The notes under the pieces: model-generated
Databases searched by the model: none
Seen by the model: only the letters and a program-made list of their open reading frames with translations
Told to the model about the DNA's origin: nothing
Made by a program: the position numbers and the translations under genes
Assembly (NCBI GenBank): GCA_015655045.1
Contig: JAATFU010000006.1
Location: forward strand, 33,058-97,057
Direction of reading: 5' to 3'
Source: Candidatus Saccharimonadota bacterium
GTDB lineage: Bacteria > Patescibacteriota > Saccharimonadia > Saccharimonadales > Saccharimonadaceae
Length of the DNA: 64,000 bases
Shown here: piece by piece, positions 3,013-57,754 of the stretch
How positions within the stretch are numbered: position 1 is the stretch's first letter
How the letters are laid out: each line of letters begins with the position of its first letter

Positions 3013-4518
3013 CTAGGGTAAAGTACTCGGCACGAAGGATGCATCATAGGAGAAATAATCATTAGGAGTGGTTGTCCAAAAGAGAGCCGTATACCAACTT
3101 GCATCACTTCTCATTAGCACAGACCCATCAGAAACACGCACCGCCGCAAACAAAGCAGCTCCCACATTAGCGTTCGACGCATTATATAACCTTATGCCAA
3201 ATGTGTGCTGACCGGGTTGAATCGTTATTGTTGTCGAGAGAAAAGCCGAACCATGCGCGGAATCTGACGTATAAACTAAATTCCCATCGAGATAGACATC
3301 ACAGACATCGTCACAATACGCGCTCACCTTAACCTGGGTGGGGCTCGTCAACGTGAAGCCAGTTGGATTTCTCAACCAGGTATATGAGCTGCCTGGGTAG
3401 TTCGTACCTGATTGACTATTCACAGTAGAGATATAATGCGAGTTACTATCACCACTAACCGTGGCCCACGTACTCGGTGCACCACCCCACGGAAGAGAAG
3501 TGTTACTATAGACACCAAAATCTCTATCTAAAGCCCAGCTATTTGGATCCTGATAATAATTTGGTGAAGAGAAATGAACAGTCGAGCCAGTCGTTACCCG
3601 CCATGAAGTATCCGAGACCATGGCGTCGGTACCGGGACCGACTTGAATGAGTTCAAATCTGAAATTTGACGCACTCGGATTCATACCATAGTTCATAGCT
3701 TTTGCACTTGCTGTGTGGCATCCAGCGGTGAGGGTGATTGATGTACCATTATGATCAGGTGTCGTTAGAACAACCTGTCCATCTATTGATACTTCGGAGT
3801 GGTCATCTGCCGATGCGGTAAGCACATATGCGCCTGCCTGGGTTATCATAAAGTCTTTTCTGTAAAATATAGGTCCCGGATTAAGGTTGCCTGTCGCAAG
3901 CGTAATGATTGCCGGGCCACCCACAGCAGTAGGTGCCGAGGCAATGACCGCATTCGTCCACCCAAGTGTAGCTGGATTATTAGGCGAGCACTGACTCACT
4001 GGAACTAAAGAAAGGAAGGTAGTTTGTTTATATGTCCTCCATGGAATAGCGTCAGTACCAACGCTTGACGTGCGAAGAATATTAACAATCCCAGTCGATG
4101 GAATATTAGTCGCTTTCCCCGTACTACTGTCGGTAGTTGGATAGGCCACGCTAAACTCTGAGGTTACGTTACTATTTACAGCTACCGCACAGGCTGGATC
4201 GACCGAGCTAGCCAGACAATTTGTTTGAACCACACCCGAACAGTCTGTGTTAACCATCAGCGGCGCACTGGCACTCCACTTTGGTATGCCATTATTGGCA
4301 TTGAGGCAGGCTTTTGCGTAAGCCACGCCCGATTCAGCAGCGGTTCGACTCAACTCATTATAATACTGGGTTTGTAAAGACACGCGCACCGCAGCCGTAG
4401 AGGTAACGGCCGTAACGAGCACAGTCAACATGACCGTGGACGCAATGAGGACTGTCGCCAGTGCAAAACCATGACTGGTTCGAGGATGACGAAGAATAGC
4501 TTGTAGTGTGCGCTTCAC
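3013..4518 (-). CDS. PilX-like type IV minor pilin/pseudopilin with two PA14-like beta-sandwich domains
   Basis: The N-terminus RHPRTSHGFALATVLIASTVMLTVLVTAV...YYNELSRTAAESGVAYAKACL fits the PilX N-terminal pattern. Two internal blocks are PA14-like: GAYVLTASADDHSEVSIDGQVVL and VKVSAYCDDVCDVYLDGNLVYTS, each followed by a ...GxHTxxxxxxN... segment. Confidence 0.6.
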   Translation of the reverse strand: MKRTLQAILRHPRTSHGFALATVLIASTVMLTVLVTAVTSTAAVRVSLQTQYYNELSRTAAESGVAYAKACLNANNGIPKWSASAPLMVNTDCSGVVQTNCLASSVDPACAVAVNSNVTSEFSVAYPTTDSSTGKATNIPSTGIVNILRTSSVGTDAIPWRTYKQTTFLSLVPVSQCSPNNPATLGWTNAVIASAPTAVGGPAIITLATGNLNPGPIFYRKDFMITQAGAYVLTASADDHSEVSIDGQVVLTTPDHNGTSITLTAGCHTASAKAMNYGMNPSASNFRFELIQVGPGTDAMVSDTSWRVTTGSTVHFSSPNYYQDPNSWALDRDFGVYSNTSLPWGGAPSTWATVSGDSNSHYISTVNSQSGTNYPGSSYTWLRNPTGFTLTSPTQVKVSAYCDDVCDVYLDGNLVYTSDSAHGSAFLSTTITIQPGQHTFGIRLYNASNANVGAALFAAVRVSDGSVLMRSDASWYTALFWTTTPNDYFSYDASFVPSTLP

Positions 4519-4641
4519 GGTAGAGATACCCCTGTATTTATCCCTTTGAGTATAGCATAAGTTATATCATCAACAAATCAGGATTCATTTTGAATTTTAG
4601 TGTATAATGTATAGTAACAACCTAAGTAGGAAGGGTCTTTC

Positions 4642-4920
4642 ATGAGTGACACAACAACTCCCCAAATAACAATCTATAGTACTTCTTGGTGCGCCTTTTG
4701 TCACACTGAAATGCAATGGCTTGATAAATTAGGTATCCCATATATTGCAAAAGATATTGAAGCTGACAAAACTGCCTACGAAGAATTGATGAGCAAGAAT
4801 GGCGGCACCTATAGTGGTGTACCTGTGACCGATATTGCGGGTGACCTTATCCTTGGTTTTGATCGTCCAAAACTTCAAGACGCCATTAAGTCTCACGACA
4901 TTCAGCCAGTTGCCGCCTAA
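4642..4920 (+). CDS. Glutaredoxin/NrdH-like thiol-disulfide oxidoreductase
   Basis: ITIYSTSWCAFCHTEMQWLDKLGIPY carries a CxxC motif in a thioredoxin-fold context, and GVPVTDIAGDLILGF matches the glutaredoxin cis-Pro region. SD-like AGGAAGGG lies upstream. Confidence 0.8.
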   Translation: MSDTTTPQITIYSTSWCAFCHTEMQWLDKLGIPYIAKDIEADKTAYEELMSKNGGTYSGVPVTDIAGDLILGFDRPKLQDAIKSHDIQPVAA

Positions 4921-5003
4921 TCTTTCTCCTTTGGCTTATTGCCTAGTTAATAACGATAAACACGGAGGTTATACGTATTAACGATCACGAGCCACCGAGT
5001 GAC

Positions 5004-9165: not shown

Positions 9166-10332
9166 CTATCGGTTAACGAGATTAGTGTAAATCGCCTCGA
9201 AACGCTCAAGGGTATAATTCAGGTTATGTGTTTGAGCAATGGCAAGACTCTCTCGACTCATTTGGTCATGCAATTCTTTATCAGCAATAATGGCCAAGAT
9301 AGCAATTGCAAACTGTTCGTCGTTATCAAGTTCACACAAGAAACCATTACGATCATTTTGGCACAGCTCTCTTAATGCGCCGGCATCAACGGCAACTACC
9401 GGTTGACCACTAGCCATAGCTTCAAGCGTGGCTATACTTTGAAGCTCTACAGGGGAAGGCATAACATAGACCGTACCTACTTGGTGAAGGAGTGGCAAAT
9501 CCTCATCACTGACTCGACCCGTAAAAGTAACTCGATCGGTGATTCCGAGCTTATGAATAAGGTGGTGTAGATTCTCAACATCGGTACCATCACCAACAAT
9601 CATTAGGTGTGCATCATAAATAGGAGCAATTCGTCCAAAAGCTCGTACGAGCGTCTGGAGATGTTTCTCTGCATCGATTCGTCCGATGTACGAGACGATT
9701 GGTTTATTTGTTGGCAGGTTAAACTTTTTAAGGATTGCCTTTGAGGGAGTTCCTGCTTTAAAACGGCTTAAGTCAATACCATTTGAGACCGCCTCCATTG
9801 GAACGGCAACTTTGTCGGTCACGTTCAACATATCAATCGCTGCCTGGGTCGGAAGGGTGACGTAATCAGCTTTTGAATGAAAGCGTGCTCCATACCCGTT
9901 GAGCATGTAGTTAATTGGTCGAGCAATTGGCGCAAGAAGCTTAATATTGTCCATAAGGTTTTCAGGTACCGCATGGTTGGTACTGACAATTGGAATACCG
10001 AGCTTATTGCCAAACTTCATTGCCGCTTGTCCTATCCACATCATCATCTGTACGTGGATCACGTCAGGGTCAAAATCTTTAATTATCTTCTTTACTTCAG
10101 GACCAGGCGTAGGAGAGATGCGAAAGTTCTGATAAAAGGCAAACGGAACTGACGAAGTTCGATAAATAATGTGATTACCGTCAATTTCTTTATAGCGTTT
10201 ACCCGATTGGCTCGGAGCAATCACGACTACTTCGTGTCCTCGAGCGGCCAAACCCTTGGCGAGATTACGACTGAAAGTTGCGACGCCGTTAATTGTCGGC
10301 CAATGCAAATCCGACGCGATTAAAATTTTCAT
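9166..10332 (-). CDS. Glycosyltransferase, GT4 (GT-B fold)
   Basis: N-terminus MKILIASDLHWPTINGVATF. C-terminal PSPVELQSIATLEAMASGQPVVA matches the E-x7-E region of GT4 enzymes. Start set at ATG 10330-10332. Confidence 0.85.
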   Translation of the reverse strand: MKILIASDLHWPTINGVATFSRNLAKGLAARGHEVVVIAPSQSGKRYKEIDGNHIIYRTSSVPFAFYQNFRISPTPGPEVKKIIKDFDPDVIHVQMMMWIGQAAMKFGNKLGIPIVSTNHAVPENLMDNIKLLAPIARPINYMLNGYGARFHSKADYVTLPTQAAIDMLNVTDKVAVPMEAVSNGIDLSRFKAGTPSKAILKKFNLPTNKPIVSYIGRIDAEKHLQTLVRAFGRIAPIYDAHLMIVGDGTDVENLHHLIHKLGITDRVTFTGRVSDEDLPLLHQVGTVYVMPSPVELQSIATLEAMASGQPVVAVDAGALRELCQNDRNGFLCELDNDEQFAIAILAIIADKELHDQMSRESLAIAQTHNLNYTLERFEAIYTNLVNR

Positions 10333-10360
10333 ATACCAGCAATTATAACACGACGCCCCG

Positions 10361-11128
10361 CTAAGGCTCATACGGTTTAGAACCGACTGCACCTCTCTTT
10401 ATATAGTTTTCCCTTGTTCGCTCATTTGACTTCCTGATACCTTCTCTAAAGAAGGCAAGAAGCGGCTGATAATCGGCCGGTTCTGGAGTATATGCGAGCA
10501 AGTCTAAGTCTAATAGTTGCTTAAACACCCCCCCTTCATTACCCACAACTGCCTCTGTTAAAGCAACATCTTCAAGTGGCCAATAGTGCTGTAGTCCAAG
10601 CACTTTGTCGAGTATCACCTTGCGTCCTATATGAATACCCATATTAGGCCCATACTGCGCGCCATTGCTGCCACTATTGAATGCTCTCTGTTTTGTTGCA
10701 ATAGTAGCACCGATTCGCCATAAAGACCGAATATTTGAGCTGAGTGTTGTCTCGCCTGATTCCAGCGTAAGCCAGACAGGACCTGACGCAACAATAGGGC
10801 GGGAGGCTTGTGGTTCAAGTGCAGAAAGCATACGTCTATGCCATTCTATGGGATGCCGAGGAATCGTATCAGCATCAAGTAACAAAAGTGGTTCAAGCGC
10901 TCTTTCCCCTAAGTCACGGAGGACATGTTGAATTGCCGGTAGTTTACCTTGCTCAGAGAGATTAAATACTTTGACACCAAAATGCTCAGCAATTGTTACT
11001 GTATTGTCTGTTGATCCATTAGAGGCAACAATCGGTTCAACCTCTTGCGGAAGCGCATTCAAAGTTGTAGCAATGTTCCGTTCCTCATTAAACGCAGGAA
11101 TAATAACAGGAGTCTTCATACTAACCAT
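10361..11128 (-). CDS. Glycosyltransferase family 2
   Basis: PVIIPAFNEERNIATTL...SNGSTDNT...LLLDADT are typical GT2 N-terminal motifs with a DxD-like element. Confidence 0.8.
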   Translation of the reverse strand: MVSMKTPVIIPAFNEERNIATTLNALPQEVEPIVASNGSTDNTVTIAEHFGVKVFNLSEQGKLPAIQHVLRDLGERALEPLLLLDADTIPRHPIEWHRRMLSALEPQASRPIVASGPVWLTLESGETTLSSNIRSLWRIGATIATKQRAFNSGSNGAQYGPNMGIHIGRKVILDKVLGLQHYWPLEDVALTEAVVGNEGGVFKQLLDLDLLAYTPEPADYQPLLAFFREGIRKSNERTRENYIKRGAVGSKPYEP

Positions 11129-53691: not shown

Positions 53692-55212
53692 CTATAGTTC
53701 AACCACATCTTCACCAAAGTGTTTCTGTAGGCGCATAACGATTGAACCTTCATGACGCCCCAGTAATGCGCTCAGTTCTTTTACACTTGCTCCATTTTGA
53801 AATTTCTCCTGCAATGTCGCATCCTGAAGAGGTTCCCAGGGTCGATAGGCGTTGGGATATGTTTCACGCATCTTGGCAATTTTCTCCGACCAACCATTCA
53901 ATTGCTTATCCTTTTTAGGAAGCTCGTGTATACGTTTATCAGCCTGTTCCTCGAGGTAGTTAAATCGTTTCGTTGCCTGCATGGCTTTATCCCGAAGCAT
54001 GATGTCGATCTCTTGGGCCACTGCGCTGACTTGCAGTGCCATGCGATTAATACCGGATAAGTAAAGACTGTGCAAGTTTTTTACTCGACTTAATGCAACG
54101 TAGCCCATACCTTCAACAAATGCTTTTCGAAGATCAATACGTGCGGCATCGAGCGTCATACCCTGGGATTTATGAACAGTAATCGCCCATGCGAGACGCA
54201 GTGGAATCTGTGTAATACTCGCCCGTTTCTTATCTCCATCCCGTAACTCCCACGTATCAGGTTGCATCGTCACTACCTTACCACTCTTGAACTCAACCAC
54301 GGGGTACTCTGTACCTGGTTCAAAATCAATCACCACTCCTTGGCTTCCGTTTGCGTATTTACGTTCAAGACTGTTCTTCACTGCCATAACTAAGGCACTT
54401 TTTTTGAGGCGCAAAGTGGCTGGAGCAAGCACTGACCGCTGTAAGTTCTCCACATAGCTCTCGCTCCCCGTGGTGGTCTGTGTATAAAAAAGTTCGTCAC
54501 CCCCCAAGTCGTCTAGCTTTTGATCATTGAGGCGATCGACATCGACGTTGACGGTATGGAGTTCTGTCATCACTTCACCTTCCTCGGGTACCACCTCAAC
54601 CCGCTCGAGTAGTGTCTCTGCATGATGGCGACGAAGCTCTCCAGCACGTAAGGCATTGAGGATATCCAGCAGTTGCTCATCATCTTGACGATGCTGCTCC
54701 TCGAGATAACAAATGACTGGATCTAGCTCCTGCCAAACGCGACTTCCAACTACGAAGCCACCCGCACGTGAGTCACCCCTGTTAATTGGAGGTAGCTGGA
54801 AAAAGTCACCACTCATAATAACCTGAATACCACCAAAAGGCTCATCTTTACGTCGCACTAAACGACAGACCTCATCGACCATATCAAGGCGAAAATCATG
54901 CAACATACTGATCTCGTCAATAATTAAAACATCGGTTTTTTCAATAATCTCCCGTCGTCCTTTTGCCATATGGTCCACAAAACCATGCGGAAGCTCGTCT
55001 CCAATTCCGATACCACTCCAACTATGAATCGTGGTCCCGCCTAGGTGGGTGGCCGCAAGGCCAGTCGTAGCAGTTACAGAGACATGCTTGCCGGCACCTT
55101 TTGCGAGTCGAATGAACTGATTTAACACAAAGGTCTTCCCTGCTCCGGCTGGACCAGTTAGTAATACGCTCTCTCCCAGGAGCATGATCTCAAGTGCTAT
55201 ATCCTGTCTCAT
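53692..55212 (-). CDS. Pif1/RecD-like SF1B DNA helicase with a C-terminal helical extension
   Basis: Walker A GPAGAGKTF, IIDEISML, GDFFQLPPI, ITVHKSQGMT and YVALSRV are Pif1-family motifs. A TATAAT lies only about 9 nt upstream of the ATG. Confidence 0.85.
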   Translation of the reverse strand: MRQDIALEIMLLGESVLLTGPAGAGKTFVLNQFIRLAKGAGKHVSVTATTGLAATHLGGTTIHSWSGIGIGDELPHGFVDHMAKGRREIIEKTDVLIIDEISMLHDFRLDMVDEVCRLVRRKDEPFGGIQVIMSGDFFQLPPINRGDSRAGGFVVGSRVWQELDPVICYLEEQHRQDDEQLLDILNALRAGELRRHHAETLLERVEVVPEEGEVMTELHTVNVDVDRLNDQKLDDLGGDELFYTQTTTGSESYVENLQRSVLAPATLRLKKSALVMAVKNSLERKYANGSQGVVIDFEPGTEYPVVEFKSGKVVTMQPDTWELRDGDKKRASITQIPLRLAWAITVHKSQGMTLDAARIDLRKAFVEGMGYVALSRVKNLHSLYLSGINRMALQVSAVAQEIDIMLRDKAMQATKRFNYLEEQADKRIHELPKKDKQLNGWSEKIAKMRETYPNAYRPWEPLQDATLQEKFQNGASVKELSALLGRHEGSIVMRLQKHFGEDVVEL

Positions 55213-55275
55213 ATATCTTTATTATACGGTACGTAGGCCCTTCGGTCCTAACGGACTCACGCATACCAAAAGTAT

Positions 55276-56253
55276 TTATCCTCTGGGGGGTTCACCCTCG
55301 GGGTCATCAAGTGCTCGTTTGCTCTTTACTTCGTAGCGTCGCCCTGTAATTTCACTCGTAATATAATCTTCATTAATAAGGTTAACAAACGTGTCGAGAT
55401 CATTCCCGTCCATAATAATAATGGCACCCGCATCGTCTGTCATAATTTCAAGCTGCATTTGATCGGCATAATCAATGACTTGCTCTTGGGTAATTTGACC
55501 TACCTCAATCTTTTGCAGTTTATTCACCGTCTTCTTTCGATCACGGACTAAACTCTGGAGATCAAATCCATCAGGAAAACTGAGTTTAAATTGTTTCTCT
55601 ATCTCTGCAACCTTCTGATCAGCTAGTAATTGTTTCTTGTAATCAAAGTTAAACAGTCGTTCAAATTTACTTTGGTTAAAAACAAAAATATCCGTATCCA
55701 CAATGAGGACTTGGTTATCACTAGGCACCTTCCATCCTATATCTGCTTGAAAGAGACCGAACTTACCCGCCTTAAACTCCCACGCCGTTGTGCCCTTAAG
55801 AACTTGTCCCTGACTAATATATTTGATCGTGTAAAATGGCTTCTTTGAAGGGTCTTTTGACGTAAAGCGACCAATAATGCCCTTAATCCGTTTAAATTCA
55901 TGTTCTTCTTCACTAAACTCAACTATGTCGCTTCGTTCATGCTCAATGAGATGGATAAGTGTCTCAGCCCGACCGACTTTTGGGAGATCGATTCGAAGCA
56001 ATACATTCTCTTCTTGCTCAGACAGTTCGTAGTCGCGAACGCTCAGGCCTGTTCCGGCCCCCATATTCACAAAATTAATCATGTCGTAAAGAAATAGTGG
56101 CCTAATCTGTGAGTTGAGGTCACTCGTGAAGTTTGTGGTATATGGGGTGTAGTTCTTATTGAACAAGAAAAACTCAACTTCAAGATCGTTCTTCACACCA
56201 TCTGTGTTGTTTGCCCACAGGAAAATATCAGTCGATTCGGTTTTTTCTTCCAT
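55276..56253 (-). CDS. KwaB-like protein (DUF4868-type; Kiwa defence component homologue), 325 aa
   Basis: Blocks IVDTDIFVFNQSKFERLFNFDYKK and DLDTFVNLINEDYITSEITGRRYEVKSKRAL resemble, from memory, the conserved central and C-terminal blocks of KwaB (…FIKLMSDDYLQSDLT…). The size also matches. Not verified by search. Confidence 0.55.
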   Translation of the reverse strand: MEEKTESTDIFLWANNTDGVKNDLEVEFFLFNKNYTPYTTNFTSDLNSQIRPLFLYDMINFVNMGAGTGLSVRDYELSEQEENVLLRIDLPKVGRAETLIHLIEHERSDIVEFSEEEHEFKRIKGIIGRFTSKDPSKKPFYTIKYISQGQVLKGTTAWEFKAGKFGLFQADIGWKVPSDNQVLIVDTDIFVFNQSKFERLFNFDYKKQLLADQKVAEIEKQFKLSFPDGFDLQSLVRDRKKTVNKLQKIEVGQITQEQVIDYADQMQLEIMTDDAGAIIIMDGNDLDTFVNLINEDYITSEITGRRYEVKSKRALDDPEGEPPRG

Positions 56254-56306
56254 GTTTATCTTTCTTTATTAGATGTCAATTAATGATTGTACCTCGACAA
56301 GGTTAC

Positions 56307-57092
56307 CTAAAACAAGCCTGTTCGCAGTAGACTTAAAATTCCAAGAGCCGATCTAATATGAGCTCGGCCTGATTGACTCCCAAATTCTAGGCTTTTTTTC
56401 AGAGCATTATCTGTTAGATAGCGTCGCCACTCTGTTTCTATACCATCTATCTCTTCTTCGATATTCTTCGCTGTAAGATAAGGAACAACAAAAGGACGCC
56501 TCTCAATGACTGCTCCATCATTCATATAGATTGGTGCAAACTCTTCTCCCTCGGCTGAAGTATCGTAGACCACCTCGTGAATCATTTCCCCATCAAGGGT
56601 ATAGCGAAACGCAAGTGTATAATTTTTAATTTGGCCAAACTCGTTAATGCTATATGTCACCGCTTGCTCGCGTTCAATAGGATAAGAGTCAAGATCCTCG
56701 GGATCTACTCCCTCTTCATCCTCATTGTCCTCAAGCATCTCTTGTCTCACACTCTCAGGTATCTCGTCTTGCTCAATCTCCTGACTCACCGTGCTTACTA
56801 GGTCATAATGCATAATGTCATAACCATTACCGTGGCTATCTTCGGCGCTTTGTTTGTGAGCACTAAACTCAATTCTCACTTCATTAAGAACTTCTGGGAG
56901 ATATCCATCTTCACGATCAATAGGCTGTCCAACACCTTCAGTAATCTGACGCGTTAGACCTATACTCCTAATGGCAGCTTGCCCCCAAGCTCCCCCGGCG
57001 AGATGATCGGCAACTTCAAAGCAAACACGCTCTAAATGAGCAGCATTCTGTTGTCTACGAGGAATTAAAAAGTCTCTATCTAAGTAGTGCAT
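56307..57092 (-). CDS. Hypothetical strongly acidic soluble protein (261 aa)
   Basis: No TM helix. Contains the long acidic stretch EIEQDEIPESVRQEMLEDNEDEEGVDPEDLDSYPIEREQ. No motif recognised. Confidence 0.55.
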   Translation of the reverse strand: MHYLDRDFLIPRRQQNAAHLERVCFEVADHLAGGAWGQAAIRSIGLTRQITEGVGQPIDREDGYLPEVLNEVRIEFSAHKQSAEDSHGNGYDIMHYDLVSTVSQEIEQDEIPESVRQEMLEDNEDEEGVDPEDLDSYPIEREQAVTYSINEFGQIKNYTLAFRYTLDGEMIHEVVYDTSAEGEEFAPIYMNDGAVIERRPFVVPYLTAKNIEEEIDGIETEWRRYLTDNALKKSLEFGSQSGRAHIRSALGILSLLRTGLF

Positions 57093-57147
57093 GCGCTCTT
57101 AGTATACGATGCAAAAACCGCATTCAAAAGCATAAACGACACTACAC

Positions 57148-57585
57148 TTATCTTAATTCGTTCACCTGTCCGCTCAGCCGTTGCTCTCTCGCCTTATTGG
57201 CCCACTCGTCAGCCATCTCGTTACCAGTATCACCCTCATGCCCTCGCACCCACGTCAAAATAGCATTAGACTGCCCATAAAGTTCATATACTTCTTTAAC
57301 TATTTCAAGATTTTTGATTTCGCCACCTTTTTTAATCCAGCCCTTTGCTGCCCAGCCAGGTGCCCACTTGGTTATGACATTGATCCAAAACTCACTGTCA
57401 CTAAAAATCTCACACTTCTCACCTTTCGCATCCAACAGGGCAGCGATGAGTGCTTTGCCTTCCATGCGAATATTCGTTGAGATGAGCTCATGTCCGACAA
57501 TCCATGGTTTCATATCCTTTATAACTGCAAATCCCCCAGGACCAGGATTAGGGCTGCAACTGCCATCTGTATAGTAAATAATCAT
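57148..57585 (-). CDS. rnhA: Ribonuclease HI
   Basis: IIYYTDGSCSPNPGPGGFAVI, IRMEGKALIAAL, IFSDSEF and WVRGHEGDTGNEMADEWA give the D-E-D-D catalytic pattern of RNase H1. Start set at ATG 57585. Confidence 0.9.
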   Translation of the reverse strand: MIIYYTDGSCSPNPGPGGFAVIKDMKPWIVGHELISTNIRMEGKALIAALLDAKGEKCEIFSDSEFWINVITKWAPGWAAKGWIKKGGEIKNLEIVKEVYELYGQSNAILTWVRGHEGDTGNEMADEWANKAREQRLSGQVNELR

Positions 57586-57754
57586 CTTCTCTATTCTACT
57601 ACAGCTTTCCGTTTGGTGTTTAGCCAAAAAAAGCGCATAATGAGGGAAGTATATATGTGAAATAGCACATGAAAGGGTTCATATGTCCAAGGATAGTAAC
57701 AGTCAAAAGAAAAACATCAAGAAGCCAAAAAAAGCTAAGATCGCAGCGTCTTAG

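What the first reader, a model, noticed from the sequence alone, without database searches (positions are those of the whole stretch)
55276..57092. KwaB-like (DUF4868-type) gene lacking its KwaA membrane partner, paired with an acidic soluble protein between RNase HI and a Pif1 helicase
The 325 aa ORF at 55276-56253 has two blocks (IVDTDIFVFNQSKFERLFNFDYKK and DLDTFVNLINEDYITSEITGRRYEVKSKRAL) that match my recollection of the conserved central and C-terminal blocks of KwaB, the DUF4868 effector of the Kiwa anti-phage system. Canonical Kiwa is a two-gene module in which KwaA is a polytopic membrane sensor. No membrane protein is adjacent here. The upstream, co-oriented gene (56307-57092) is soluble and very acidic, and the flanking genes are nucleic-acid enzymes (rnhA at 57148-57585, a Pif1/RecD-like helicase at 53692-55212). 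A KwaB-like protein coupled to a different partner, or working with an SF1B helicase, would be an undescribed defence architecture. It would be especially notable in a reduced-genome, CPR-like organism, where few defence systems are characterised.
Basis: partly seen in the sequence, partly recalled or inferred. Interest (0 to 1): 0.75.

Follow-up and report, generated by a model that had tools for sequence, protein, structure and literature searches.

The report
KwaA-less KwaB gene conserved in Saccharibacteria
The 325 aa gene is a real but distant relative of the Kiwa anti-phage protein KwaB; in Saccharibacteria it is a highly conserved chromosomal gene beside a Pif1 helicase and RNase HI with no KwaA membrane sensor, and the acidic "partner" is a rare, fast-evolving insert.

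Summary
The ORF at 55276-56253(-) belongs to the KwaB/DUF4868 family (Pfam above the gathering score; Foldseek's top six PDB hits are all KwaB, E about 1e-11). No KwaA exists in the 64 kb window or within 10 kb of the gene in 80+ related genomes. The upstream 261 aa protein is soluble and acidic.

The acidic gene is absent from more than 90% of related loci and about 30% identical where present, so it is not an obligate partner.

The KwaB-like gene is not a mobile defence gene. It sits in a conserved Saccharibacteria block (RecO-GlyRS...RNase HI-KwaB-like-Pif1...MraZ-RsmH). Its median identity of 78% ties it with Pif1 and MraZ as the most conserved genes there. Its Southlakia orthologue is non-essential in published Tn-seq.

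KwaA-linked KwaBs form a separate branch (300/300 bootstraps). The nearest relatives outside the clade are KwaA-less phage proteins, including one in a Nanosynbacter prophage and several near RecT/exonuclease genes.

Best reading: a KwaA-independent DNA-binding protein acting with Pif1 on replication, recombination or incoming DNA. This is a new variant of a known kind, and its mechanism is inferred, not shown.

The parts
55276..56253 (-). KwaA-independent KwaB-family (DUF4868) protein, 325 aa, pI 4.76. It has an N-terminal Rossmann-like domain and a C-terminal DUF4868 domain.
   Evidence: Pfam PF16162 at 39.9 bits; PADLOC KwaB over the full length; Foldseek to KwaB 9mrx/9mtn/9nyu at E about 1e-11; 72-84% identical orthologues in 80 Saccharibacteria loci.
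53692..55212 (-). Pif1/Dda-like SF1B helicase, 506 aa. It is the conserved neighbour, 63 nt downstream and co-oriented.
   Evidence: Pfam PIF1 at 118.9 bits; PHROG Dda-like helicase at E 3.5e-60; found in 68 of 80 loci with median 78% identity; adjacency kept in the reversed order in L085 and Southlakia.
57148..57627 (-). RNase HI (likely start is the ATG at 57585). It is the conserved upstream neighbour of the block.
   Evidence: Pfam RNase_H at 109.2 bits; found in 71 of 80 loci and directly abutting the KwaB-like gene in 24 of 71.
56307..57092 (-). Lineage-specific acidic soluble protein ("acid261"), 261 aa, pI 4.48. It is a sporadic insert in the variable RNase HI/KwaB-like junction.
   Evidence: No family or structure match; only itself among 5.8 billion proteins; about 30% identical homologues in L059, L066, L078 and L081-L083, always next to the KwaB-like gene; lowest GC3 in the block, 0.344.
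56254..56306 (-). 53 nt intergenic spacer between acid261 and the KwaB-like gene. Together with the 55 nt and 63 nt spacers (57093-57147 and 55213-55275), it is part of a tightly packed co-oriented gene string.
   Evidence: Sequence read; no terminator-like site between the genes, and promoter-like hits occur at chance level.

Best explanation
The 325 aa gene encodes a KwaA-independent member of the KwaB/DUF4868 family that is a vertically inherited, strongly constrained part of the Saccharibacteria chromosome.

By analogy with solved KwaB, I infer that it forms a dimer with a basic channel that binds DNA without sequence specificity. It is not tethered to the membrane by KwaA. Instead it works in the cytoplasm with the adjacent Pif1-family helicase, and loosely with RNase HI, on DNA replication, recombination or linear-DNA intermediates. 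A plausible role is holding or capping DNA that the helicase then processes. That could include DNA entering by natural transformation or from phage.

The 261 aa acidic gene is one of many unrelated lineage-specific genes that come and go in the variable junction upstream. It is not required for the function.

Shown: family membership, absence of KwaA, conservation, synteny, phage paralogues, and non-essentiality of the orthologue.
Inferred: DNA binding, cooperation with Pif1, and the cellular process.
For: Family and fold: (the diverse profile hits PDB KwaB at E 3e-5).

Basic residues at or next to E. coli DNA-contact positions are retained:
- R167 maps to K175, which is K/R in 63 of 63 clade members, in three alignments.
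- R142 maps to K153 (K/R in 54 of 63) in two of three alignments.
- Near-invariant K196 and invariant K245 lie next to the positions of K187 and R233.

No KwaA.

Core-like behaviour:
- At least 289 species genomes carry it.
- The block HK-RR-RecO-GlyRS...RNaseH-KwaB-like-Pif1...MraZ-RsmH is conserved.
- Median identity is 77.7%, against GlyRS 71.5 and RecO 67.9.
- The same neighbourhood occurs in clades only 42-53% identical and in cultivated Southlakia.

Operon-like packing: gaps of 6-80 nt wherever the genes abut.

The Southlakia orthologue SEML1_0265 is non-essential with flat Tn-seq read counts, which fits a conditional DNA-handling role.

The nearest relatives outside the clade are KwaA-less phage proteins. 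In L090 and L092 the gene is immediately downstream of RecT, with at most one small ORF between them. In L095 and L096 it is about 1 kb downstream of RecT-exonuclease/FtsK in a module that also has a resolvase and a helicase. One is in a Nanosynbacter prophage.

KwaA-linked KwaBs form a separate branch in 300 of 300 bootstraps.

Canonical KwaB needs KwaA for defence, so a KwaA-less clade must act differently.
Against: - No experiment bears on the function.
- N134 and D169 of E. coli KwaB are not conserved, and the alignment rests on about 15% identity.
- The protein is acidic overall (pI 4.76).
- Foldseek TM is only 0.42-0.50 with high global rmsd, so inter-domain geometry, and therefore the dimer channel, may differ.
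- Synteny with Pif1 and RNase HI is lost in at least one clade (L086), and both junctions tolerate kilobases of unrelated inserts, so tight co-regulation is not universal.
- I could not measure what fraction of all Saccharibacteria carry the gene.
- KwaA elsewhere in these genomes is untested beyond 10 kb on each side.
- Non-essentiality fits a defence role equally well.
Confidence: 0.5

Rival explanations
1. It is a dedicated, KwaA-independent immune effector fixed in the core genome. The KwaB-like protein, possibly with the Pif1 helicase, binds and blocks replication of invading phage or plasmid DNA. The paralogues carried by Saccharibacteria phages would be counter-measures (dominant-negative subunits or decoys) or superinfection-exclusion genes.
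For: Homology to a proven anti-phage effector that stalls phage replication forks. The gene is non-essential in co-culture Tn-seq. A Nanosynbacter prophage and related IMG/VR phages carry paralogues about 30% identical, which is a pattern seen in arms races. A Saccharibacterium (L115) does use a canonical KwaA-KwaB in the same region, so Kiwa-type defence operates in this lineage.
Against: Conservation and vertical inheritance are those of housekeeping genes, with no patchiness among the loci sampled. It is not in a defence island: the junction inserts are MetK-like, pilin-like, YaaA-like and unknown genes, with no PADLOC defence hits on those tested. Canonical KwaB is inactive without KwaA. 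Untethered non-specific DNA binding would need another way to tell self from non-self. Phage homologues sit in recombination/replication modules, not in recognised anti-defence loci.
Confidence: 0.25
2. One reading: a two-gene defence module in which the acidic 261 aa protein replaces KwaA as the sensor or partner of KwaB.
For: The genes are co-oriented and 53 nt apart. Every acid261 homologue found lies directly next to a KwaB-like gene, including three loci found by a search not anchored on KwaB.
Against: It is absent from more than 90% of loci carrying the KwaB-like gene, including the window's closest relatives. RNase HI directly abuts the KwaB-like gene in 24 of 71 loci. It is about 30% identical where neighbours are about 75%. 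It is unrelated to the other unknown ORFs occupying the same slot. It has no TM segment and no family match.
Confidence: 0.04
3. The acidic protein is an optional modulator of the KwaB-like protein, for example a DNA-mimic-type inhibitor in the way lambda Gam binds the KwaB channel, carried by only some lineages.
For: Strong net negative charge (52 D+E against 23 K+R, with a 30-residue stretch containing 15 acidic residues). Strict adjacency to the KwaB-like gene, on either side, in all seven loci. Fast evolution. KwaB is known to be inhibited by a DNA mimic.
Against: There is no homology or structural evidence. Many proteins in this genome are acidic, including KwaB-like itself. Adjacency could simply reflect inheritance at an insertion-prone junction, since most carriers form one clade. 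I could not obtain a structure prediction with an alignment under the tool restrictions.
Confidence: 0.1
4. It is a decaying relic of an ancestral Kiwa operon that lost KwaA and has no current function.
For: KwaA is missing. One Saccharibacterium has an intact KwaA-KwaB in the same region.
Against: The ORF is intact in all 80 loci at 72-84% identity, with 50 invariant columns even across clades 42-88% identical. L115's KwaB belongs to the KwaA-linked branch and never groups with the KwaA-less proteins (0 of 300).
Confidence: 0.01

Closest known systems
KwaB of the Kiwa defence system (E. coli O55:H7; PDB 9mrx, 9mtn, 9nyu, 9o0i; Pfam PF16162)
   Same: Same two-domain fold over the full length (Foldseek E about 1e-11). 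The C-terminal block (F..L..DDY..S..T...Y....K) is conserved. Several basic DNA-contact positions are retained.
   Different: Only 14-15% identical, and below the NCBIfam equivalog cutoff (52.6 against 200 bits). There is no KwaA partner. It is chromosomal, vertically inherited and highly conserved rather than HGT-driven and MGE-associated. Its neighbours are Pif1 and RNase HI. It lies on the KwaA-less side of a 300/300 bootstrap split.
Phage-encoded KwaA-less DUF4868 proteins (PHROG 11123 and 15620; IMG/VR contigs L095-L113; the Nanosynbacter TM7-087 prophage protein WP_243819239.1)
   Same: These are the closest relatives outside the Saccharibacteria chromosomal clade (30-41% identity against 25-26% for KwaA-linked KwaB). 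They have the same length and lack KwaA. They are set among DNA-transaction genes such as RecT, exonuclease/FtsK, resolvase, helicase and PNKP.
   Different: They are on phage or prophage genomes rather than the host core chromosome, and are not linked to Pif1 or RNase HI. Function is unknown for all of them.
Southlakia epibionticum SEML1_0265 (DUF4868) with SEML1_0264 (Pif1/RecD-like helicase) and SEML1_0262 (RNase HI)
   Same: An orthologous neighbourhood in a cultivated, genetically tractable Saccharibacterium. The same three genes plus GH1 and RsmH lie nearby.
   Different: The order of helicase and DUF4868 is swapped (as in L085). There is no acid261 homologue; a different 170 aa hypothetical gene fills the gap.

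Membership tests
KwaB / DUF4868 protein family (Pfam PF16162) | Sequence match to the family model above its curated threshold | tested here: met
   PF16162 at 39.9 bits against a gathering score of 26.3, E 5.9e-10. Eight PADLOC KwaB models hit, best E 1.7e-13.
KwaB / DUF4868 protein family (Pfam PF16162) | Full-length two-domain architecture (N-terminal Rossmann-like domain plus C-terminal DUF4868) and the KwaB fold | tested here: met
   Model-to-protein coverage is 21-316 of 325 aa (PADLOC) and 22-312 (NCBIfam). The AF2 model (pLDDT 80.9) matches only KwaB chains in PDB, over 317-340 aligned columns, E 1.6e-11, probability 1.0. TM of 0.42-0.50 indicates a different domain orientation.
KwaB / DUF4868 protein family (Pfam PF16162) | Conservation of the experimentally defined DNA-contact residues (N134, R142, R167, D169, K187, R233 of E. 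coli KwaB) | tested here: inconclusive
   R167 maps to K175 (K/R in 63 of 63) and R142 to K153 (K/R in 54 of 63). K187 and R233 fall one column from near-invariant K196 and invariant K245. N134 and D169 are not conserved. The alignment rests on about 15% identity.
NCBIfam NF041623 'anti-phage protein KwaB' (equivalog) | Score at or above the curated equivalog cutoff of 200 bits | tested here: not met
   52.6 bits. Ten relatives from across the branch score 22-68 bits.
Kiwa defence system (KwaA + KwaB operon) | Adjacent KwaA, a roughly 180-200 aa four-TM membrane protein (PF28043) | tested here: not met
   No KwaA in the window or within 10 kb in 80+ loci: PADLOC; tblastn and an HMM of three KwaA sequences over 1.77 Mb. 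As a positive control, KwaA overlaps KwaB in L087, L114 and L115.
Kiwa defence system (KwaA + KwaB operon) | Mobile, patchy distribution (HGT, association with MGEs or defence islands) | tested here: not met
   The gene sits in a conserved housekeeping block in all 80 loci with median 77.7% identity. Canonical Kiwa is more than 53% MGE-associated and incongruent with host phylogeny.
Kiwa defence system (KwaA + KwaB operon) | Protection against phage or plasmids; membrane localisation of KwaB through KwaA | not testable with these tools
   Needs experiments. The only functional datum is that the Southlakia orthologue is non-essential in Tn-seq.
Pif1-family SF1B helicase (the neighbouring gene) | PIF1 helicase domain above threshold | tested here: met
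   PF05970 at 118.9 bits against 25.9; PHROG Dda-like helicase at E 3.5e-60.
DNA-mimic proteins (Gam/Ocr-like), considered for the 261 aa protein | Structural mimicry of DNA and binding to a DNA-binding target | not testable with these tools
   Only composition is known (pI 4.48). There is no sequence match to anything. No alignment-based structure job was permitted for it.

The most novel reading that the evidence does not exclude
KwaB is not only a Kiwa effector. It would be one arm of a wider family of KwaA-independent DNA-binding proteins, perhaps DNA-end-binding or fork-binding, used by phages in RecT/exonuclease recombination modules and fixed in the Saccharibacteria core genome alongside a Pif1 helicase. 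On this reading Kiwa arose by coupling such a protein to a membrane sensor. In Saccharibacteria the host copy and the copies carried by their own phages would compete or cooperate over the fate of linear incoming DNA from transformation or infection.
Probability: 0.25. Interest if true: 0.8.

Novelty: new variant of a known kind. Interest (0 to 1): 0.55.

Why it matters
Kiwa is among the most common bacterial defence systems, and its effector has been studied only together with KwaA. The main study explicitly analysed only complete KwaA+KwaB operons.

A deep KwaA-less branch, conserved like a housekeeping gene across a whole class of ultrasmall episymbionts and shared with their phages, bears on two questions:
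- Where the effector came from: DNA metabolism or phage recombination on one side, immunity on the other.
- What the DUF4868 fold does to DNA when it is not at the membrane.

The question is directly testable. Southlakia epibionticum carries the orthologous locus, is naturally transformable, and tolerates insertions in the gene.

The result also warns annotation pipelines that "KwaB-like" in Saccharibacteria should not be counted as a Kiwa defence system.

Tried and rejected
- First AlphaFold run, with 48 sequences all at least 80% identical, gave pLDDT 40.6 and was not used. It was rescued with a 42-88% identity alignment.
- phmmer and the narrow profile A1 against PDB found no KwaB. Only the diverse profile A3 did.
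- The acidic protein matched nothing in Pfam, PADLOC, NCBIfam, PHROGs or PDB, and only itself in the 5.8-billion-protein search.
- Test of whether the unknown ORFs upstream of the KwaB-like gene in other genomes are one fast-evolving family: hhalign links only clusters 2/14 and 9/18, and none to acid261. No Pfam hits.
- Promoter and terminator scans were uninformative.
- tblastn of the window protein and of P0140 against GenBank phages gave no match. IMG/VR was needed.
- A bootstrap run containing the saturated E. coli fragment produced NaN distances and a spurious "Saccharibacteria monophyletic 185/200". I discarded it and redid it cleanly.
- The TM7x transcriptome supplement held only host genes in the text available, so there is no expression evidence.
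- The "core family = 0" flag in the Southlakia table refers to 921 pan-bacterial families and does not count against lineage-level conservation.
- A weak CARF3 PADLOC hit on the L059 acid261 homologue (E 2.3e-5 over 53 aa) is not reproduced in the window protein, and I treat it as unconfirmed.
Full report
**Observation.** They are co-oriented with spacers of 55, 53 and 63 nt. There is no terminator-like site between them, and promoter-like matches occur at chance level.

**Family membership of the 325 aa protein.**
- Pfam PF16162 (KwaB): 39.9 bits against a gathering score of 26.3.
- PADLOC: eight KwaB models hit, the best over nearly the full length at E 1.7e-13.
- NCBIfam KwaB equivalog: aligned over 22-312 but scoring only 52.6 bits against a cutoff of 200.
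- Structure: a first AlphaFold attempt with a shallow alignment failed (pLDDT 40.6). A second, with sequences 42-88% identical, gave pLDDT 80.9 and pTM 0.72.
- Foldseek against PDB: the only significant hits are six KwaB chains (9mrx KwaA-KwaB complex; 9mtn and 9nyu KwaB). They have E 1.6e-11 to 1.5e-10, probability 1.00, 317-340 aligned columns and 14-15% identity. The next hit has E 0.65. TM of 0.42-0.50 with high global rmsd suggests a different inter-domain orientation.
- A diverse family profile reaches PDB KwaB by sequence at E 3e-5.

So the protein is a KwaB-family member, but a distant one.

**No KwaA.** The 261 aa protein has no TM segment, pI 4.48, and no match in Pfam, PADLOC, NCBIfam, PHROGs or PDB. 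None of the window's membrane ORFs hits a KwaA model. Neither do the few multi-TM ORFs found near the gene in related genomes. tblastn and an HMM built from three real KwaA proteins find nothing in the window or in 1.77 Mb of fetched loci, apart from the four canonical Kiwa loci that serve as positive controls.

**Conservation and synteny.** The 325 aa protein has 3,269 cluster-level hits. The best 120 are all 78-100% identical, and those with names come from Saccharibacteria. A scan of one genome per GTDB species found at least 289 species with a relative. This is a lower bound, because the scan used peptide patterns taken from the query. The best 80 loci are 72-84% identical.

In these loci the gene lies in one conserved block: histidine kinase, response regulator, RecO, GlyRS..., RNase HI, [gap], KwaB-like, [gap], Pif1, (GH1), MraZ, RsmH.

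Median identity to the window's proteins:

| Gene | Median identity (%) |
|---|---|
| Pif1 | 78.1 |
| KwaB-like | 77.7 |
| MraZ | 77.6 |
| RNase HI | 73.3 |
| GlyRS | 71.5 |
| RecO | 67.9 |
| RsmH | 67.7 |

So the KwaB-like gene is among the most constrained genes in its neighbourhood.

The neighbourhood persists in clades only 42-53% identical:
- L084 has the window's order.
- L085 has RNase H-hyp-PIF1-KwaB-GH1-CofD-MraZ-RsmH.
- L086 keeps RecO-GlyRS but has lost Pif1 and RNase H.

Cultivated Southlakia epibionticum has the L085 order: SEML1_0262 RNase HI, 0263 hypothetical, 0264 helicase, 0265 DUF4868, 0266 GH1. Published Tn-seq calls 0265 non-essential at all three time points, with flat read counts (PMC10633639 Table S1/S2). 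That table's "core family" flag refers to pan-bacterial families and is uninformative here.

Canonical Kiwa behaves differently. Its phylogeny deviates from host phylogeny, more than 53% of loci co-localise with mobile elements, and loss of KwaA abolishes defence (PMC11785009; PMC13434031).

**The acidic "partner".** The 261 aa protein matches only itself among 5.8 billion proteins.
- Among the 80 genome loci, homologues exist in L059 and L066 (upstream, 31-32% identical) and L078 (downstream, about 21-24%).
- A profile scan of metagenome contigs, not anchored on KwaB, found three more loci (two nearly identical). All have the order RNase HI-acid261-KwaB-like-Pif1.
- So it is a real gene, with 33 invariant columns, and it is always adjacent to the KwaB-like gene. 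But it is rare and evolves far faster than its neighbours.
- On the KwaB-like tree most carriers form one clade, which also contains non-carriers. The window sits elsewhere, next to genomes that carry unrelated ORFs in that slot.

Both junctions of the KwaB-like gene are variable. RNase HI abuts it (gap under 160 nt) in 24 of 71 loci, and Pif1 abuts it (gap under 170 nt) in 21 of 68. Otherwise the inserts reach 6.2 kb and 2.5 kb.

The 206 inserted ORFs fall into 85 clusters: MetK-like, type IV pilin-like, YaaA-like, prephenate-dehydratase-like, and many unknowns. The unknown upstream ORFs are not one family, and none relates to acid261. Representatives have no Pfam domain and no PADLOC defence hit on those tested.

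An optional modulator role, for example a DNA mimic by analogy with Gam binding KwaB, remains a low-probability possibility.

**Wider family.** An exhaustive search of 1.84 billion representatives found only 222 relatives. Full-length members run from 53% down to 25% identity, and none reaches the KwaB equivalog cutoff. Their contexts sort by identity to the window protein.

At 25-26% identity they are canonical Kiwa, with KwaA (PF28043) overlapping KwaB:
- L087, beside an HNH nuclease and a DNA methylase.
- L114, near a resolvase.
- L115.

At 30-41% identity they lack KwaA and sit in phage-like arrays:
- RecT-small ORF-KwaB-like (L090).
- Methylase...RecT-KwaB-like-small ORF-PD-(D/E)XK/FtsK...endolysin on a 37 kb contig (L092).
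- T4-type RNA ligase-small ORF-KwaB-like-PNKP (L089).
- Others with RtcB or YopX.

IMG/VR holds 20 contigs with relatives:
- L095 carries integrase, RecT, an exonuclease/FtsK fusion, the KwaB-like gene about 1 kb further on, a Holliday-junction resolvase, a helicase and ParB.
- L102 carries small and large terminase subunits, HNH, KwaB-like, a regulator and a portal gene.
- The L102-type cluster (422 members) includes a protein from Candidatus Nanosynbacter sp. TM7-087. In that genome it lies in a prophage flanked by host genes: BipA, RarA, Band_7 | RusA, terminases, KwaB-like, YopX, KilA-N, capsid (L116). So phages of Saccharibacteria themselves carry paralogues.
- GenBank phages have no detectable homologue.

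In a clean NJ analysis (30 sequences, 319 columns) the three KwaA-linked proteins separate from all KwaA-less proteins in 300 of 300 bootstraps. Within the KwaA-less branch, chromosomal and phage sequences interleave and the order is unresolved. An earlier run with NaN distances is discarded.

**L115.** This contig is from a Saccharibacterium. Its GlyRS is 67-73% identical to the others, and its RecO is 60% identical to L086's. It carries KwaA-KwaB immediately after RR-RecO-(362 aa)-GlyRS, the same region as the window's gene. Its KwaB never groups with the KwaA-less proteins (0 of 300). I therefore read it as an independent canonical Kiwa in an insertion-prone region, not as the ancestral state. 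The contig ends at KwaB, so whether that genome also has the KwaA-less gene is unknown.

**Mechanism.**
- Shown: the KwaB fold, absence of KwaA, strong constraint, vertical synteny with Pif1 and RNase HI, phage paralogues in DNA-transaction modules, and non-essentiality of the orthologue.
- Partly shown: retention of basic residues at the E. coli DNA-contact positions. R167 maps to K175 (K/R in 63 of 63). R142 maps to K153 (54 of 63). Near-invariant K196 and invariant K245 flank the K187 and R233 positions. N134 and D169 are not conserved.
- Inferred: the protein is a dimeric, non-sequence-specific DNA binder like KwaB (PMC11785009). It acts free in the cytoplasm with the Pif1 helicase on replication, recombination or linear-DNA intermediates. 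Given that Saccharibacteria are naturally competent, this may include incoming DNA.

The main rival is a dedicated KwaA-independent immune effector, with the phage paralogues as counter-measures. My evidence disfavours this because of the housekeeping-like conservation and context, but does not exclude it.

**Novelty.** Databases already label these proteins "KwaB-like", and the Southlakia table lists the DUF4868 domain. No paper in the searchable library discusses DUF4868 in Saccharibacteria or KwaA-less KwaB. I rate it a new variant of a known kind, of moderate-to-good interest, and directly testable in Southlakia.

Noticed in passing
L115:3469-4933 (KwaA 3469-4008, KwaB 4001-4933): A Saccharibacterium (GlyRS 67-73% identical to the others) carries a canonical, overlapping KwaA-KwaB pair immediately after RR-RecO-(362 aa)-GlyRS. 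This is the same chromosomal region where other Saccharibacteria carry the KwaA-less gene. Its KwaB falls in the KwaA-linked branch. The contig ends at KwaB.
   Followed up: partly
L116:5242-20966 (KwaB-like at 10001-10966); related IMG/VR contigs L097-L113: A prophage in a 537 kb Candidatus Nanosynbacter sp. TM7-087 contig (RusA, small and large terminase, KwaB-like, YopX, KilA-N, capsid) and 17 related viral contigs encode a KwaA-less KwaB paralogue about 30% identical to the host core gene. It always follows terminase and a small HNH gene.
   Followed up: partly
L092:4761-9516; L095:4299-8963; L096; L090:886-2832: Uncultivated phages place a KwaB-like gene close to RecT and a PD-(D/E)XK exonuclease/FtsK-like fusion, in a slot reminiscent of the Gam position in Red-type recombination modules. 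In L090 and L092 it is directly after RecT, with at most one small ORF between. In L095 and L096 it lies about 1 kb downstream of the RecT-exonuclease/FtsK pair. L095 also has an integrase, a resolvase, a helicase and ParB.
   Followed up: partly
L094:7527-9108; BFVD entry A0A8S5QWK1; L036, L040, L044, L047: Likely mislabelled records. IMG/VR contig L094 and a "Siphoviridae sp." BFVD fragment (66% identical) look like Saccharibacteria chromosomal RNase HI-KwaB-like-Pif1 segments filed as viral. Several MAG contigs titled Taylorbacteria, Verrucomicrobiia, Chloroflexi or Parcubacteria carry the typical Saccharibacteria synteny at 77-79% identity.
   Followed up: no
Junctions flanking the KwaB-like gene in L001-L080 (for example L076:5114-5659, L037:6366-6893): Both junctions are insertion-prone. 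Type IV pilin-like genes recur: 20 ORFs in 17 loci, mostly just downstream on the opposite strand. MetK-like genes recur upstream in 23 loci. There are also several families of unannotated acidic proteins of 160-390 aa, with clusters 2/14 and 9/18 remotely related.
   Followed up: partly
window:56307-56360 (C-terminus of the 261 aa protein); alignment A2: The acid261 family keeps a conserved hydrophobic or amphipathic C-terminal segment (ALGILSLLRTGLF) after an otherwise very acidic sequence. It is too short to be scored as a TM helix. The L059 homologue gave a weak PADLOC CARF3 hit (E 2.3e-5 over 53 aa) that the window protein does not reproduce.
   Followed up: no
window:57755-57964 (+): A 69 aa ORF on the opposite strand between RNase HI and the DUF5666 gene is conserved at 69-75% identity in 8 related loci. 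It has no family match.
   Followed up: no
window:62971-63480 (-) and window:28076-30040 (+): Weak PADLOC hits unrelated to the finding. A 169 aa single-TM protein matches mad2 and type II methyltransferase models (E 4e-9). A 654 aa six-TM protein matches candidate system PDC-M43B (E 2.8e-8). These are probably generic domain similarities.
   Followed up: no
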